Source: a virus
Taxonomy: Duplodnaviria > Heunggongvirae > Uroviricota > Caudoviricetes
Strand: one strand, 5' to 3'
Virus record (IMG/VR): IMGVR_UViG_3300007747_000008
Span: 45,828-109,827 of that record
Length of the DNA: 64,000 nucleotides
Below the pieces are notes generated by a model. It saw nothing but the letters and a program-made list of their open reading frames with translations. It did not search any database and had not been told where the DNA came from. This document shows positions 17,587 to 22,170 of the stretch, in pieces (the first letter of the stretch is position 1; every line of letters starts with the position of its first letter). Made by a program: the position numbers and the translations under genes.

Positions 17587-17613
17587 AAAGGGAGCAATTA
17601 GCTCCCTTTTTTT
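17587..17613. terminator. Bidirectional intrinsic terminator
   Basis: AAAGGGAGC-AATTA-GCTCCCTTTTTTT between convergent gp46 and endoVII. Confidence 0.85.
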
Positions 17614-18092
17614 ATATTAAGCATATCCAGCTTACCTTCCTTGATCAATTTTCGGGCTTGGTTAGCTCTTTTCTTGACATTACTCTCTGGAATAACACCA
17701 AATGATGATAAAATATCACATTGTTGTTTTGCAGGTAATGCCTTGTACTTTTTCACGTCTACTGTTAGTGCTGTATGGTGTATTACCATATCTTCTTCAC
17801 TAATATTACCATTTTTTTCCAAATAGTCAGCTAAATTACGTAGTACTTCATGAATAGGCTTATTAGTTAAATGACCTAAACATCTTCTATATGAATTAAC
17901 CACTCTTCCTTCCCAACCATTTACTTCATTCTGTAGTACTTCTCGGCAATGTTGATTACCTTGATGATAATGGTCTAGTACTGGCTTAGTAATCTTAATA
18001 CCAATAATAGGATCTATGCCATTTTGTTTTTTTAACAATTCATTACGATACTTTGCAGCATCTTTTGAATCTTTTAATCGTCGTTTTCCCAT
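17598..18092 (-). CDS. Endonuclease VII (gp49-like Holliday junction resolvase)
   Basis: KQNG...VLDHYH...VLQNEVNGWEGRV...LRNLADYL aligns with T4 gp49 (D40/H41/N62/E65 equivalents kept). Confidence 0.75.
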   Translation of the reverse strand: MGKRRLKDSKDAAKYRNELLKKQNGIDPIIGIKITKPVLDHYHQGNQHCREVLQNEVNGWEGRVVNSYRRCLGHLTNKPIHEVLRNLADYLEKNGNISEEDMVIHHTALTVDVKKYKALPAKQQCDILSSFGVIPESNVKKRANQARKLIKEGKLDMLNIKKGS

Positions 18093-18134
18093 TTAAGTAC
18101 TTTCCTTAATAATTTTCTATATGTATTTAGAATT

Positions 18135-18165
18135 TCGGGACAGATCCGGTTTTATGTGATATAAT
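18135..18165 (+). promoter_or_regulatory. Pre-replicative promoter pointing into the non-coding region
   Basis: GGGACA 18137-42, 17 nt, TATAAT 18160-65 with ATGTGA upstream; same class as the replication-gene promoters. Confidence 0.8.
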
Positions 18166-18171
18166 ATAGAT

Positions 18172-18617
18172 AACCCAGTGTGGATGCGTAAAAGCATACA
18201 ATTCAAACCTGATTCACTCGAAAATGTAGAGGACAGATGAGCAGACCACACGTGCGAAGTGCAAATTATACCCGTTAGGAGATGGCGATTGTACCACCCA
18301 CGGCAATGCGGCACTATAAATGAACGCGATAAGCAGACTGACGTTCACTAGATAGACATATGAGGAAACACCTTACCACACTTGCTAAGGGAGTTTAGAT
18401 TTTGCTGGCTATAGATCCGCCCAAAATTTGAACAACATTAAGATTCGATTGTATGGATTTTAATGTAGCGTAGTAGGACTACGACCGTTGCACATGACAG
18501 TGATAGAGAGAAACAGAGCAACCCGCTTTCGTTCTAATCAATTTAGAAATTCACTATACAATAATTCCGATGCTATCAGCGTCAAGCAATATTCAGATCC
18601 TTAATTGGGTCTTTTTT
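18172..18617 (+). ncRNA. Candidate large structured non-coding RNA (~445 nt), family unassigned
   Basis: Bounded by a class promoter and an intrinsic terminator; no ORF of 60 aa or more on +; at least 7 hand-found helices; more GC-rich than flanks. Confidence 0.6.
18595..18617 (+). terminator. Intrinsic terminator ending the ncRNA candidate
   Basis: AGATCC-TTAATT-GGGTCT then a T run. Confidence 0.65.
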
Positions 18618-18623
18618 ATTGTC

Positions 18624-18647
18624 TTCATCCCCCTGCGGGGGGATGAA
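18624..18647. repeat. Perfect GC-rich inverted repeat
   Basis: TTCATCCCCC-TGCG-GGGGGATGAA, 10-bp stem, no adjacent U-tract on either strand. Confidence 0.85.
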
Positions 18648-18816
18648 ATTGCCTCTACAAATCTCGTCAAGTATTAAAGTACATAAGAATTTAAAACAAT
18701 TATCTAAATGAATTGAAATTATGAATAACGAATGAAATGAGTTATGAATAATTGAAAATTCTTAGACAATCGTAGATTGGCTAATCACATAATATAAATT
18801 ACATTATTACAGATAT

Positions 18817-18842
18817 AAAAAAACCAGCAAAATATGCTGGTT
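18817..18842 (-). terminator. Intrinsic terminator for the gp26/gp51-like unit
   Basis: AACCAGCA-TATTT-TGCTGGTT-TTTTT on minus strand, overlapping the stop at 18841. Confidence 0.85.
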
Positions 18843-18999
18843 ATTGTTTGTTTTCTTTTGTAACTTTTTTGTTATATGCCTTAACCAGAAGATCTCTTTC
18901 ATTAGTTGGCATGTTTAATAGCGTCTCATAGTTCGTATTAGTGATATAGACTGATATCTCCATCAAAGCTGCTTTTAACTCTTTGACATTCAGTTCCAT
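18841..18999 (-). CDS. gp51-like baseplate hub assembly ORF (52 aa from ATG; probably reached by -1 frameshift from gp26-like)
   Basis: MELNVKELKAALMEISVYITNTNYETLLNMPTNERDLLVKAYNKKVTKENKQ*; LNMP..ER motif of gp51-like proteins; frame is open back to the slippery site at 19053-19059. Confidence 0.6.
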   Translation of the reverse strand: MELNVKELKAALMEISVYITNTNYETLLNMPTNERDLLVKAYNKKVTKENKQ

Positions 19000-19016
19000 A
19001 TCACTAATAAATTTAC

Positions 19017-19892
19017 TTATTTCTTCTGGCTTTGCGATGAGAAGCTGTATCCGAAAAAATGAGATGGGTCATAACGAAGTTTATCAATTGTCCATTCATG
19101 GTTACACTCGGAACAACCTACTTCCATTTCATGACTAATACCAATCTCTTGAATCTCATCACTCGCTTCACGTACTTGTTTAAGTGTGTTCTTAGGTAAA
19201 GAACTTACCCACTCTGTGACAAATTCCGACTCTTCAACTACATCTCCATCAGGTGTTTCAATTTTCTCAATACTTTTGACAATCATATCAAAGTTTAATT
19301 GAGTCATTCCCTCGAAAACTTCAGTGAATAATTTCTTTTTCAACTGGAATGCTTCGTCATCATCACCTTCTAAAGTATCAATATACTCAGATTTTTTCTG
19401 TTCTTGGAACATACGTTGACCAAAATCACTATATTCATTCCATGTATATGGCTTAAAGTACACTTTAAGTCCATTGGATAGCTCTAGAATAGGCTGATTT
19501 TCAAAATAAGTCATAGTTTCTAATAATGCTTTCAAATCACGATGGAATGCACCCTCGTGACCACATTCAGGACACTTAGTCTGTATTTCATAATGATCTT
19601 CTTTAGAAGCAACTTTAATTGCGATTAATAATTGCTCAACATCATTTACATATAACTCTCCTGCTTCTTCAATATCAGGTACACAGTTTTCAATCACTTT
19701 AATAATTGCATCACCACCAATCAATGCATCTGGTGTGTTTAACATAATCTCATCACGTGCAGATCTCGCACAAACACCCAACTTAATACTTTTTAATACT
19801 TCAGGTTTGTATTTCATAACGTTATTAGAAGCTAGTTTAACAAAAAGTTCTTCAATCTTAGTGTACTTAGCTAACGGGTTCATCTTACTCAT
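19017..19892 (-). CDS. Baseplate hub assembly chaperone, gp26-like
   Basis: NPLAKY...ARSARDEIMLNTPDAL...DVEQLLIAIKVAS...CPECGHE...CSECNHEW...HFF, the pattern of jumbo-phage gp26 homologues. Confidence 0.75.
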   Translation of the reverse strand: MSKMNPLAKYTKIEELFVKLASNNVMKYKPEVLKSIKLGVCARSARDEIMLNTPDALIGGDAIIKVIENCVPDIEEAGELYVNDVEQLLIAIKVASKEDHYEIQTKCPECGHEGAFHRDLKALLETMTYFENQPILELSNGLKVYFKPYTWNEYSDFGQRMFQEQKKSEYIDTLEGDDDEAFQLKKKLFTEVFEGMTQLNFDMIVKSIEKIETPDGDVVEESEFVTEWVSSLPKNTLKQVREASDEIQEIGISHEMEVGCSECNHEWTIDKLRYDPSHFFGYSFSSQSQKK

Positions 19893-19944: not shown

Positions 19945-22170
19945 ATGGCAATTGATAACAGTTTTATCTTGCAACAAATACTTTTAGAGCAATCAAAAAC
20001 AAATGATGATCTTTCAGCAATGAGAGATATATTAGCTGATACATTAAAATTGCAACAAAAGAATAGCAGGAAAAATGATGGTGGTAATGGTAACCCCCCA
20101 CCGTCAGGAGGTGGTAACCCTCCCGGAGATCGCCGTCGCAGGCGTGGTCCCGGTGGACCCGCTGGTGGAAATAACTCCAGTTCTGGTATGTTTAAAAACA
20201 TATTTGGAGAACTAAAGAACTTCTCAAAAACAACATTAGGCAATAATGCCACTGCAAGCAATGTAGTCAACTCCTTCGGTACTAGCTTAGGTTCAGTCAC
20301 TGGTGCATTAAAAATGATACCGGGTCCAGTAGGGGCTGCCGCAACCGCATTTACGGCGGTAGTTGATGCAGGTATGGCTGTTTATAATTATATGAACGAA
20401 CAACTTAGTATGTATAACAAGTTGAACAGTGCTGGTGTGACCCTACGAGATGGTATGCTCTCTGCAAGAAAAGCTGCTGCGGGATCATATATGAGTCTTA
20501 ATGAGTTTAATGATGTAATTCAAAAGAACAGTGAATCTATTGCTGCAATGGATGGTGAGTACGGAAATGGTATCCAAACATTCTCTAATTTAATGGGTTC
20601 TTTACAAGATCTCCAACAGGTTAATGGAATATATGGTGTATCACAACAACAATTAGCAGACCTAGCAGCAAAAAACTTTAAGTATGAGAAATTATATTCA
20701 TCTCAGAACGCATTAAAGAATATGAACCAAGCACAAAGTACTGCTGAATTCGTTAATCAAATGACTAACCTAAGCAAATCGGTCGGTAAATCGGTCGATG
20801 ATCTATTAGGCAAATTTGATTCAATGGGTAACACACTAGACAGTACCGTATCACAGTATGCAATGAGTGATAATTGGGGCTTTGATTCTGATAAAGCTGC
20901 TGATGTAACCAAAGCGATGAATGCTGCATATTCAAGTATGGGCGAAACTGGTCAAGTTTTACAAAAAATTAACGCATCAAGACTATCATTATTCCAACTA
21001 CCAGATGAATATAATAACCAATTCATGCAAGGTTATGCAGATATGATGGAACAGCTACAGCGTGATGGTGTAACTGACTCTAAAACAGTTAGAGAAACAA
21101 TGAACAAATATGTTCAAACTCACTCTGAACAATTGAAGCTAGAATTAATTGCACAACAACGAAGTGGTAATATTCAAGCAGCCGATTTATTAACTAAAAT
21201 TCAGAACCAAGAAAAATTATTCAATGAAAGTAACACTACTACCAATGCTCAATTAGAACAGTATACTAGTAATTTTAATGTATGGATAAGTAAAACATTC
21301 ACTGGACCATTTAATGAGATGTATGCAAAATTACAATTGAGTACTATGAAATATTTGAGTGACATGGTATCACAATCTGATGGTGTATTCTCGTTACTTG
21401 GAAATATCGCATCAGATGCTTATCGATATTTGAGTACTCAAACTTCGGGTATGTTCGGTGCTATGGCTGATGTTCCGGGTCAGATAATGAAAATAATTTT
21501 AGGTGATTCATATGACAAAGTGAAAGCTGCGTTTGATGATATGATGGCTGATTTAATAAAAATTCCATCAAGATTGGCTGGATTAATATGGGATTGGATG
21601 ACTGGTAATGATATCACTCAATCACAAAATGATTTAAAAAGTTCAGTGCATGATGTTTTTAATGATTTTGGAAAATATTGGGACTCAATTAAGAATATTA
21701 AATTTAATTATTCAGATATGAAAACCAGAATTCAAGATGCATTTGAAAGTATGAAAAAATCGATATCAGGTTGGTGGGATACTGCAAAAGGGTGGTTTAG
21801 TAGTGAAGATCCAATTCCAGATGATGGGAAAAAGACCGCTAAAAATGGCGTACCAAACACTCCGATAAATAACAATACTACACAGGATCCAGTTACTGCA
21901 ACTGTTGCACAAAATAAACCGCAACAACCTCCAGTACTGGCAACTCCACCAAATAGTAAACCTGAACAAATTTCGGACGATGCAAAGAAAGATGATACTC
22001 AAACTGCAAGTACTGCTTCACCAATACCAGTTGTTGATTATGATGAATCTATTCTATCAACATTAAAAGCAATTGCAAGTTCAATGGAATCATCTAACAG
22101 TACTAATCAGCAAACAGCTCAACTACTTCGTCAAATTTCGGAGAATACCGAAGCTCAACGCCAGACATAA
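19945..22170 (+). CDS. Putative tape-measure/baseplate hub protein (gp29-like)
   Basis: 741 aa, helical Ala/Ser/Gln/Met-rich; divergent from gp26-like gene; late promoter ATAAATA at 19907-13. Confidence 0.5.
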   Translation: MAIDNSFILQQILLEQSKTNDDLSAMRDILADTLKLQQKNSRKNDGGNGNPPPSGGGNPPGDRRRRRGPGGPAGGNNSSSGMFKNIFGELKNFSKTTLGNNATASNVVNSFGTSLGSVTGALKMIPGPVGAAATAFTAVVDAGMAVYNYMNEQLSMYNKLNSAGVTLRDGMLSARKAAAGSYMSLNEFNDVIQKNSESIAAMDGEYGNGIQTFSNLMGSLQDLQQVNGIYGVSQQQLADLAAKNFKYEKLYSSQNALKNMNQAQSTAEFVNQMTNLSKSVGKSVDDLLGKFDSMGNTLDSTVSQYAMSDNWGFDSDKAADVTKAMNAAYSSMGETGQVLQKINASRLSLFQLPDEYNNQFMQGYADMMEQLQRDGVTDSKTVRETMNKYVQTHSEQLKLELIAQQRSGNIQAADLLTKIQNQEKLFNESNTTTNAQLEQYTSNFNVWISKTFTGPFNEMYAKLQLSTMKYLSDMVSQSDGVFSLLGNIASDAYRYLSTQTSGMFGAMADVPGQIMKIILGDSYDKVKAAFDDMMADLIKIPSRLAGLIWDWMTGNDITQSQNDLKSSVHDVFNDFGKYWDSIKNIKFNYSDMKTRIQDAFESMKKSISGWWDTAKGWFSSEDPIPDDGKKTAKNGVPNTPINNNTTQDPVTATVAQNKPQQPPVLATPPNSKPEQISDDAKKDDTQTASTASPIPVVDYDESILSTLKAIASSMESSNSTNQQTAQLLRQISENTEAQRQT

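What the first reader, a model, noticed from the sequence alone, without database searches (positions are those of the whole stretch)
18172..18617. Promoter- and terminator-bounded ~445-nt densely structured non-coding RNA
Seen: a full copy of the replication-gene promoter (18137-18165) points into a stretch with no + strand ORF of 60 aa or more, ending at a hairpin plus T run (18595-18617). Hand-found helices: 18321-26/18342-47, 18371-75/18386-90, 18397-404/18422-29, 18435-46/18455-66 (12 bp with G-U pairs), 18469-74/18478-83, 18487-91/18518-22, 18532-37/18543-48. TGATAG (18501-06, inside the 18487-18522 loop) can pair with CTATCA (18573-78), a possible pseudoknot. The region is more GC-rich than its flanks. 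Established: phages carry large ornate RNAs of unknown function (ROOL, GOLLD), and T4 origins use middle-promoter transcripts as R-loop primers. Inference: this is a functional large RNA, either a new ornate RNA or an origin-priming transcript. I could not assign it to tmRNA, RNase P or an intron.
Basis: partly seen in the sequence, partly recalled or inferred. Interest (0 to 1): 0.78.

Follow-up and report, generated by a model that had tools for sequence, protein, structure and literature searches.

The report
Multi-copy knotted RNA gene, jumbo phage
The gene-free gap holds one of about five evenly spaced copies of a large, multiply knotted RNA that RaK2/121Q-like giant phages keep; it matches no catalogued RNA family and its job is unknown, and it ends in an odd duplicated segment on either side of a weak terminator.

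Summary
A strong promoter (18137-18165) points into a GC-richer stretch without a plus-strand ORF of 60 aa. That stretch folds better than shuffles on the plus strand only and ends at a weak hairpin plus T run (18595-18617). One helix and the proposed pseudoknot are wrong: 18499-18503 pairs with 18551-18555.

The locus is paralogue "A" (between endonuclease VII and the baseplate hub) of a family with four or five co-oriented, evenly spaced copies per RaK2/121Q-like genome. Two E. coli chromosomes carry one copy in a small integrase island. A diverged subfamily occurs in uncultured phage and bacterial contigs. Nothing in Rfam 15 matches, and RNase P and tmRNA are excluded.

This scan has already followed up this family at least 15 times on other DNA, including copy B of this genome.

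New here: the conserved unit runs on to about 18790. The segment that closes the core is repeated after the terminator and a C5/G6 hairpin, and the two repeats change in step.

Function is unproven. My best guess is a cis-acting two-state leader (about 0.35). The rivals are a trans-acting ornate RNA and an RNA-primed origin.

The parts
18137..18165 (+). Promoter GGGACA-N17-(TGTGA)TATAAT. The same class occurs about 18 times in the 174-kb genome piece, always on the + strand.
   Evidence: present in front of every copy
18172..18392 (+). 5' domain of the RNA. It contains PK1 18178-83/18246-51, P2 18209-11/18234-36, P2b 18217-19/18229-31, H3 18241-43/18253-55, P4 18259-62/18311-14, P4b 18272-75/18300-03, P5 18321-26/18342-47, PK2 18332-36/18382-86 and P6 18362-65/18371-74. 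It also holds the invariant blocks GAAAATGTA, AGATGAG, CGGCAATGCGGC, CTAGATAGACATAT and TAAGGGAG.
18393..18433 (+). Optional peripheral module (..TATAGATCCGCCCAAAATTTG), closed by 18393-96/18430-33. In other copies it is absent, or it sits instead inside the hairpin that corresponds to 18532-48.
18435..18563 (+). 3' domain. It contains P8 18435-46/18455-66, whose loop 18449-54 pairs with 18556-61 (PK3), and P9 18469-74/18478-83. P10 18487-91/18518-22 is interleaved with P11 18506-10/18526-30, forming an H-type knot. PK4 is 18499-503/18551-55 and P12 is 18532-37/18543-48.
   Evidence: 87.8% of changed cells still pair in the long-range pairings
18564..18586 (+). Proximal closing segment (AATTCC..CTATCAGCGTCAAG), the first of two identity-coupled repeats.
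18595..18617 (+). Weak intrinsic-terminator-like hairpin (6 bp, 3 G-C) plus T6. It is present in A- and B-type copies, built differently in D/E types and absent in C types.
18624..18647 (+). Near-invariant tail hairpin TTCATCCCCC-TGCG-GGGGGATGAA.
   Evidence: occurs only beside RNA copies
18647..18671 (+). Distal repeat (AATTGCC..CAAATCTCGTCAAG), which changes in step with 18564-18586.
18725..18745 (+). Hairpin X (ATAAC / GTTAT) with a CGAATGAAATGA loop (ACGAAGTGA-like in other copies), inside an AT-rich stretch.
   Evidence: read from the sequence
18756..18786 (+). Hairpin Y (CAATC-GTA-GATTG, 18767-79) in the conserved frame AAAATTCTTAGA..GGCTAAT. At least eight different stem sequences occur in the family. 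In other paralogues it lies 5-25 nt before a ribosome-binding site and start codon. Here no gene follows.
18822..18852 (.). Two-way terminator hairpin. It has a good T run for the - strand (hub operon) and a poor one for the + strand.

Best explanation
Shown with high confidence (about 0.95): window 18137 to about 18790 (+) is a gene for a large non-coding RNA. It is the 'A' paralogue of a family that RaK2/121Q-like jumbo phages keep in four or five co-oriented copies about 55-85 kb apart.

A sigma-70-like promoter with an extended -10 starts the transcript near 18172. The first 415 nt or so fold into two domains. These are tied together by a 5'-end/loop pairing, two further loop pairings and an H-type knot.

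Inferred (about 0.35): the RNA acts in cis on its own transcript as a two-state leader.

The strand that closes the core (18564-86) is repeated (18647-71) on the far side of a weak terminator and a C5/G6 hairpin. The two copies are kept identical at every variable position. This is what is expected if they compete for the same partner.

On this reading the fold decides between two outcomes. Either transcription stops at 18617 and releases a ~445-nt RNA, or it runs on through the tail and hairpins X and Y. In four of the five paralogues, and in a distant subfamily, those hairpins abut the ribosome-binding site of the next gene. In this copy read-through meets only the weak + strand side of the 18822-42 hairpin and the convergent hub operon.

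What the fold senses or binds is unknown.

The confidence figure given for this entry (0.4) is for the whole statement, mechanism included.
For: RNA gene:
- Fold z = -2.87 on the + strand against +0.20 on the - strand.
- Over 115 proposed pairs, 85% of cells pair against 66% in shuffles. Cells with double changes number 1153 against 366 +/- 17.
- Seven helices are 100% paired with compensation.
- PK1 is at least 7 bp in 70% of units against 12% when loops are swapped between units, with 29 different duplex sequences.
- 68-88% of changed cells still pair against at most 45% in shuffles.
- There is no conserved reading frame, and careful annotators leave the gap empty.

Family:
- Five copies each in 7t3, GAP32, CBB, BF and Hallingskeid, and four found in 121Q and UE-S1, all on one strand.
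- A second copy lies in this genome.

Cis leader:
- The tail and the hairpin Y frame occur only beside RNA copies.
- Y sits just before a Shine-Dalgarno sequence and ATG in the B-E paralogues and in the diverged subfamily.
- Repeat coupling: the Y position reads TT in 31 units and CC in 25, with none discordant. Mutual information is 0.99 bit against 0.55 for the next column, with at least 4 switches on the tree.
- GTGTCA, CTTCA and CGAAG variants each appear in both repeats of a unit.
- In D/E types the proximal repeat is itself the 5' strand of the terminator.
- E types pair the proximal repeat with the 5' leader over 9-13 bp.
- Even spacing and the retention of every paralogue at its syntenic place argue for a position-bound role. 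P(minimum gap) is 0.001-0.005 per genome on a circle; the genomes are not independent.
Against: This copy has no downstream + strand gene, yet it keeps the tail, X and Y in every genus.

The genes that follow the other copies are unrelated to each other.

A 415-nt sensor is far larger than any known riboswitch or put-type element.

No complementary partner that covaries with the repeats was found. GTCA can pair with TGAC after PK1, but GTCA never varies.

There are no expression data: no RNA run is on record for this phage.

An earlier fixed test by this scan, on another copy, found only 50.8% of changed places still paired. My figures are higher, but they rest on a structure partly derived from the same alignment.
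Confidence: 0.4

Rival explanations
1. It is a trans-acting 'ornate' RNA. The ~445-nt RNA released at 18617, or a processed form, works through its fold as a scaffold, decoy, ribozyme or multimer, as is supposed for ROOL and GOLLD. The downstream elements only process or stabilise it.
For: This copy is a stand-alone unit with its own promoter and terminators and no gene behind it.

The fold is elaborate, with long invariant unpaired blocks.

An E. coli island took over just this unit and no phage protein. That would suit a decoy.
Against: It does not explain several things: the even spacing, the retention of five diverged paralogues at fixed places, the identity-coupled repeats around the terminator, or the conserved hairpins that abut ribosome-binding sites.
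Confidence: 0.3
2. It is an RNA-primed replication origin. The promoter transcript forms a persistent hybrid in the AT-rich DNA behind the G6 run and primes leading-strand synthesis by the T4-like replisome, as at T4 oriF/oriG or with ColE1 RNA II. Islands borrow the unit so that the phage amplifies them.
For: Copies are evenly spaced and co-oriented.

The unit needs no protein of its own and was captured whole by an island.

The 150 nt behind the tail are 66-78% A+T against 64% for the genome.

The gp46/47-like and endonuclease VII genes lie next door.

An earlier agent reached the same lead (e1-122907).
Against: T4-type origins need no conserved RNA fold.

Hairpins X and Y covary like RNA and sit at ribosome-binding sites.

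GC skew does not change at the five units: delta is -0.04 to +0.04 against a genome sd of 0.075.

No copy was found on 72,556 plasmids.

The diverged subfamily sits in front of ordinary genes.
Confidence: 0.15
3. It is a DNA-level repeat or a decayed gene with no RNA function.
For: Several deposited genomes annotate short ORFs across it.
Against: Those ORFs differ in frame and strand between close relatives.

Compensatory changes preserve pairing on one strand only.

The - strand gains nothing over shuffles.
Confidence: 0.03

Closest known systems
ROOL (RF03087) and GOLLD (RF01998): large 'ornate' RNAs of phages and prophages
   Same: A several-hundred-nucleotide, pseudoknotted, promoter-driven non-coding RNA carried by phages and mobile islands, with no known function. 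These RNAs are RNA-only assemblies by cryo-EM (10.1101/2024.12.08.627333, listed).
   Different: Neither covariance model matches, even at E up to 10. The present family is multi-copy, evenly spaced and co-oriented within one genome, and it carries a duplicated 3' closing segment. Multimer formation was not tested.
T4 oriF/oriG R-loop origins and ColE1 RNA II
   Same: A promoter transcript is followed by an AT-rich stretch. There are several dispersed sites per genome, and for RNA II the pre-primer is a folded ~550-nt RNA with a G-rich anchor.
   Different: There is no evidence of an R-loop or of replication starting here. The fold is far more constrained than RNA II, and X and Y lie at ribosome-binding sites.
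Terminator-controlling leaders: riboswitches, T-box, HK022 put RNA
   Same: The order is promoter, folded RNA, weak terminator, then genes. Two interchangeable strands flank the terminator, and the downstream genes are of any kind, as with put.
   Different: The RNA is 3-6 times larger. No ligand, tRNA or polymerase contact is known. This copy leads no gene.
ncRNA001-004 of the related jumbo phage PA5oct (PMC7318152)
   Same: These are abundant 236-619-nt ORF-free transcripts in a distant relative of RaK2-like phages. They show that such phages do make large ncRNAs.
   Different: The family profile shows no similarity to ncRNA001 or ncRNA002 (best nhmmer E = 5, off target).

Membership tests
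Any Rfam 15 family (4227 models) | Covariance-model score at or above the gathering threshold | tested here: not met
   There were 0 hits in the whole window. With E up to 10 on 18050-18900, nothing falls inside 18172-18535, and only chance-level hits of 15-17 bits lie at 18536-18628.
Bacterial RNase P RNA (RF00010) | Match to the model, or sequence similarity to E. coli M1 RNA (conserved regions I and V) | tested here: not met
   There is no covariance-model hit. The local alignment score against the E. coli rnpB taken from L128 is 19, against a shuffle mean of 18.1 (35% of shuffles as good). Shared 6-8-mers are at chance level.
tmRNA / tRNA | tRNA-like domain found by ARAGORN | tested here: not met
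   0 genes in the window.
ROOL / GOLLD | Homology to the family model | tested here: not met
ROOL / GOLLD | Homo-oligomeric RNA-only cage | not testable with these tools
   This needs cryo-EM or native gels.
T4-type R-loop origin | Promoter followed by an easily unwound AT-rich element | tested here: inconclusive
   The promoter is present. The 150 nt behind the tail are 66-78% A+T against 64% for the genome. GC is 0.24-0.29 at 18600-18899.
T4-type R-loop origin | Persistent RNA-DNA hybrid and a replication start at the site | not testable with these tools
   GC skew shows no change at the units. For T4-like phages that is weak evidence either way.
Terminator-controlling leader (riboswitch / attenuator) | Folded domain, then an intrinsic terminator, then a controlled gene | tested here: not met
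   For this copy the fold and a weak terminator are present, but no + strand gene follows. The feature is met by the B-E paralogues and by the diverged subfamily.
Terminator-controlling leader (riboswitch / attenuator) | Mutually exclusive pairings that share one strand | tested here: inconclusive
   Two strands kept identical flank the terminator. The shared partner was not identified by covariation.
The jumbo-phage RNA family itself (this scan's earlier findings) | Full-length profile match, own GGGACA promoter, and the conserved blocks GACCGT..GAAAC..ACCCGC with the tail hairpin | tested here: met
   nhmmer E = 6.7e-163 for the window copy, and all blocks are present.

The most novel reading that the evidence does not exclude
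The five units are position-bound machines, not just RNA genes. At five evenly spaced sites on a 350-kb phage chromosome, a knotted nascent RNA toggles between two identical closing strands. That choice sets either how far host RNA polymerase travels (protein-free processive antitermination on a giant scale) or where replication is primed. Bacterial islands would have stolen the unit to plug into that control.
Probability: 0.2. Interest if true: 0.9.

Novelty: new variant of a known kind. Interest (0 to 1): 0.7.

Why it matters
Large structured RNAs without a known job are rare, and each one solved so far has revealed new RNA biology.

This one sits in culturable E. coli, Salmonella, Klebsiella, Erwinia and Serratia phages such as 121Q, PBECO4 and phAPEC6, so it can be deleted, probed and imaged at once.

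Three features are not seen in ROOL, GOLLD or OLE, and they make a cis-acting chromosomal role directly testable: five ancient paralogues at fixed, evenly spaced places; capture of the unit by host islands; and the in-step duplicated closing strand around a terminator.

There is also a practical point. Many deposited genomes annotate spurious small proteins across it.

Tried and rejected
- RNase P resemblance. Several short strings looked like M1 RNA, but alignment and k-mer tests were at chance.
- Hammerhead-like core (CAGATGAG .. GAA). Considered from the alignment and dropped, because positions essential to hammerheads vary (AGTTGAG; CGATG/CGCAG/CGTTG) and no Rfam ribozyme model hits.
- Small ORF starting at GGGGGGATG (18643). 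Homologues differ by 1-nt indels inside the conserved tail, so the frame is not kept.
- PA5oct ncRNA001/002. No homology.
- Expression. No RNA holder is listed for this stretch. The four runs laid were contigs of uncertain kind and showed neither transcript ends nor levels.
- One-genome-per-species collection. The first pattern found nothing, and the seven hits of the looser pattern were chance, with no profile match.
- Plasmids. No match.
- The island's neighbouring proteins have no homologues in jumbo phages.
- Internal guide complementary to the repeated motif. No consistent site.
- A general 5'/3' closing helix. Clear only in E-type copies.
- GC-skew shift at the units. None.
- Literature. 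No paper describing this RNA was found. The catalogue of 10,006 unnamed viral candidates (PMC10690425) could contain it; I could not check.
- I did not use the count of structure pairs, to avoid typing an 846-character structure string. The same counts were made by script.

Full report
**What is at the coordinates**

The window belongs to a RaK2/121Q-like jumbo phage. Its closest records are Salmonella phages 7t3, SE_PL and Munch (about 90% identity) and Erwinia phage Hallingskeid (85%).

The finding lies between a minus-strand endonuclease VII gene (17598-18092) and a minus-strand baseplate-hub operon (18841-19892).

- A GGGACA-17-TATAAT promoter with a TG-extended -10 sits at 18137-18165.
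- No plus-strand ORF longer than 38 aa follows inside 18172-18617.
- GC rises to 0.39-0.45 from 0.24-0.34 in the flanks.
- A 6-bp hairpin with a T6 run lies at 18595-18617.
- The plus strand folds 2.9 sd better than dinucleotide shuffles (0 of 100 as good). The minus strand is no better than shuffles.

So the raw observation stands.

**It is one member of a multi-copy family**

The same 0.5-0.7 kb unit occurs at four or five places in each related genome, always on one strand:

- 7t3 at 30.7, 103.1, 162.8, 243.7 and 325.5 kb.
- GAP32, CBB, BF and Hallingskeid with five each.
- 121Q and UE-S1 with four found.

The held part of this genome (174 kb) has a second copy 82 kb downstream.

Copies within one genome are only 60-70% identical. 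They share long invariant blocks separated by stems of different sequence.

The spacing is even. The chance that five random points on a circle leave a smallest gap this large is 0.001-0.005 per genome. The genomes are syntenic, so these values are not independent.

This scan has already followed up the family at least 15 times on other windows, including copy B of this same genome (e1-1715920). Each time the verdict was "new large pseudoknotted RNA, function unknown". My tests agree with that verdict independently.

**Structure**

I collected 56 non-redundant copies from eight isolate genomes, IMG/VR contigs and one E. coli island and aligned them (A2).

- Five of the seven helices, plus the terminator stem, are 87-100% paired with many double changes.
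- Among 855 cells that differ from the commonest pair in those six stems, 78.2% still pair. The best of 200 shuffles gives 36.0%.
- The helix 18371-75/18386-90 is not supported.
- The proposed pseudoknot 18501-06/18573-78 is contradicted. 18501-03 vary freely against 18576-78, while 18499-503/18551-55 shows two or three Watson-Crick types at each of five pairs and no mismatch in 56 sequences.

A column-pair scan and per-helix counts give the following model.

- The 5' domain runs from 18172 to 18392. The extreme 5' end pairs with the loop of hairpin H3, and the loop of P5 pairs with 18382-86.
- The 3' domain runs from 18435 to 18563. It is built on an H-type knot (P10 interleaved with P11), with two more long-range pairings, PK3 and PK4.
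- Seven helices are 100% paired with compensation.
- The 5'-end pairing is at least 7 bp in 70% of units, against 12% when loops are exchanged between units, and it uses 29 different duplex sequences.
- Overall, 85% of cells pair against 66% in shuffles. Cells with double changes number 1153 against 366 +/- 17.

An earlier fixed test by this scan on another copy reported only 50.8% of changed places still paired. My figures are 68% for all 20 helices, 79% for those in well-aligned columns and 88% for the long-range pairings. The caveat is that part of my model was derived from the same alignment.

**It matches nothing known**

- Rfam 15 gives no hit at gathering scores anywhere in the window, and nothing meaningful at E up to 10.
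- ARAGORN finds no tRNA or tmRNA.
- A resemblance to RNase P RNA that I thought I saw did not survive alignment and k-mer tests against the E. coli rnpB gene.
- The RNA-seq-proven ncRNAs of the distant relative PA5oct are not homologous.
- I found no paper that describes this RNA.

**The unit is longer than reported**

Behind the T run comes a near-invariant hairpin, TTCATCCCCC-TGCG-GGGGGATGAA (18624-47), and then CCTCTACAAATCTCGTCAAG (to 18671).

Next is an AT-rich stretch with hairpin X (18725-45) and hairpin Y (18767-79). Y sits in a conserved frame, AAAATTCTTAGA..GGCTAAT. Its stem has at least eight different, perfectly complementary sequences across the family.

In this genome the tail and the Y frame occur only beside the two RNA copies. 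The promoter type, by contrast, occurs about 18 times.

In paralogues B-E, hairpin Y lies 5-25 nt before the Shine-Dalgarno sequence and start codon of the next plus-strand gene. In copy A no gene follows in any genus. The unit runs instead into a hairpin at 18822-42, which is a good terminator for the minus strand and a poor one for the plus strand.

**A feature that I did not find in the notes of earlier agents**

The segment that closes the core (18564-86, AATTCC..CTATCAGCGTCAAG) is repeated after the terminator and the tail hairpin (18647-71, AATTGCC..CAAATCTCGTCAAG).

Wherever the motif varies, both repeats of a unit carry the same letter:

- The pyrimidine in A-Y-C reads TT in 31 units and CC in 25, with none discordant. 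Mutual information is 0.99 bit against 0.55 for the next best column in the alignment, and there are at least four independent switches on a tree built from the rest of the RNA.
- E-type units have GTGTCA in both places.
- RaK2-type units have CTTCA in both.
- The final purine agrees in 51 of 56 units.
- An upstream word (TCC, TGG, TGC, TAC, ATC, TGT, AAC or TGA) also agrees in most units.
- A diverged subfamily has CGAAG in both places.

Paralogues inside one genome differ from each other, so a single trans-acting reader does not explain the match.

I found no segment complementary to the whole motif. GTCA can pair with the TGAC/TGGC/TGAT that follows the 5' strand of PK1: pairing is 81-91% in that register and at most 41% on average in slid registers. 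GTCA itself never varies, so that is not covariation.

In D/E-type copies the proximal repeat forms the 5' strand of the terminator hairpin. In E-type copies it pairs with the 5' leader over 9-13 bp, with compensation.

**Outside jumbo phages**

Two of 5426 complete E. coli genomes carry one full unit (phage-type promoter, RNA, terminator and tail). It lies in a ~10-kb island next to ffs. The island also holds an IS3-split integrase, hypothetical proteins and a DuOB-DUF488-mSLOG/DUF4326 conflict system. The island shares no protein with the phages.

Metagenome contigs add a diverged subfamily that keeps the 3' domain, the tail and hairpin Y. It occurs in other phage-like contigs and in one bacterial contig, where it lies beside an MFS transporter gene and large BNR-repeat (Sortilin-Vps10-like) protein genes. 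In each case it again sits directly before a ribosome-binding site.

No copy was found on plasmids or in the one-genome-per-species collection.

**How it most likely works**

That it is a functional structured RNA is close to certain. The mechanism is inference.

I give about 0.35 to a cis-acting two-state leader. On this reading the nascent fold chooses between the proximal and the distal closing strand. That choice sets whether transcription stops at the weak terminator or runs on into the tail, X, Y and the next genes. This accounts for:

- the repeats kept identical around a terminator;
- the hairpins that abut ribosome-binding sites;
- the gene-agnostic placement at the heads of long co-oriented blocks;
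- the retention of each paralogue at its place.

It is weakened by this very copy, which leads no gene, by the sheer size of the fold, and by the missing partner.

About 0.30 goes to a trans-acting ornate RNA. Copy A looks like a free-standing gene, and the island copy could be a decoy.

About 0.15 goes to an RNA-primed origin. Even spacing, an AT-rich stretch behind a G run and capture of the whole unit fit it. Against it, there is no GC-skew change at the units and a knotted fold is not needed.

There are no expression data. No RNA run is on record for this phage.

**Verdict**

The object is a real and interesting orphan RNA family that this scan has already met many times. The added value here is a corrected pseudoknot map for this copy, the longer unit, the in-step repeats and the diverged subfamily.

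Noticed in passing
G000:C1, e.g. window 13473, 32395, 40467, 45109, 45192: The promoter GGGACA-N17-TGTGATATAAT occurs about 18 times in the 174-kb genome piece, always on the + strand. It is a phage-wide promoter class with a non-canonical, strongly conserved -35 box, perhaps read with a phage factor.
   Followed up: partly
window 18397-18429; L006:~1990-2030; L009: An optional module of about 35 nt (..GTACAAnAnAGATCCGTCCAAAATTTG) is inserted at one of two different places in different copies: after TAAGGGAG, or inside the hairpin that follows CCCGCTTTCG. Some copies have it at both places. In some copies it can form its own small pseudoknot (GGACGCA/TGCGTCC with ATTTT/AAAAT).
   Followed up: partly
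L146:7950-8600 (-), L171:7130-7800 (+), L151:700-1650 (-): A diverged subfamily of the RNA has a different 5' domain but the same 3' knot, tail and hairpin Y. It occurs in uncultured phage-like contigs, one of them with Thg1-like and DUF6267 genes. It also occurs in a bacterial contig beside an MFS transporter gene and large BNR-repeat (Sortilin-Vps10-like) protein genes.
   Followed up: partly
L051:10959-21303 (E. coli LR-29-1, next to ffs): A ~10-kb integrase island carries the RNA unit, three hypothetical genes and a DuOB-DUF488-mSLOG/DUF4326 predicted conflict system. The integrase is split by IS3.
   Followed up: partly
L011/L013 (UE-S1, about 174.5 kb): One UE-S1 copy has an internal partial duplication of the P4 region (ACCCGTCAGATGTGGGCATAGTTTGAACCCCTCACGGCAATGCGGC appears twice).
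   Followed up: no
L002:2908-3553; L016:2088-2625; L020:1556-2060: Records 7t3 and Hallingskeid annotate three or four 'hypothetical proteins' of 30-70 aa across the RNA genes, mostly on the opposite strand. 121Q, GAP32, CBB and BF leave the gaps empty. The small ORFs are almost certainly spurious.
   Followed up: yes
window 20000-20400: There is a local GC peak (0.45-0.48) inside the 741-aa structural-protein ORF (19945-22170), well above the ~0.33 of its surroundings.
   Followed up: no
C-type copies, e.g. L043:1125-1175, L047, L055: Some paralogues begin with a strong hairpin plus T run (GGACAGC..GCTGTCC TTTTTT) directly after the promoter, before the conserved RNA starts.
   Followed up: no
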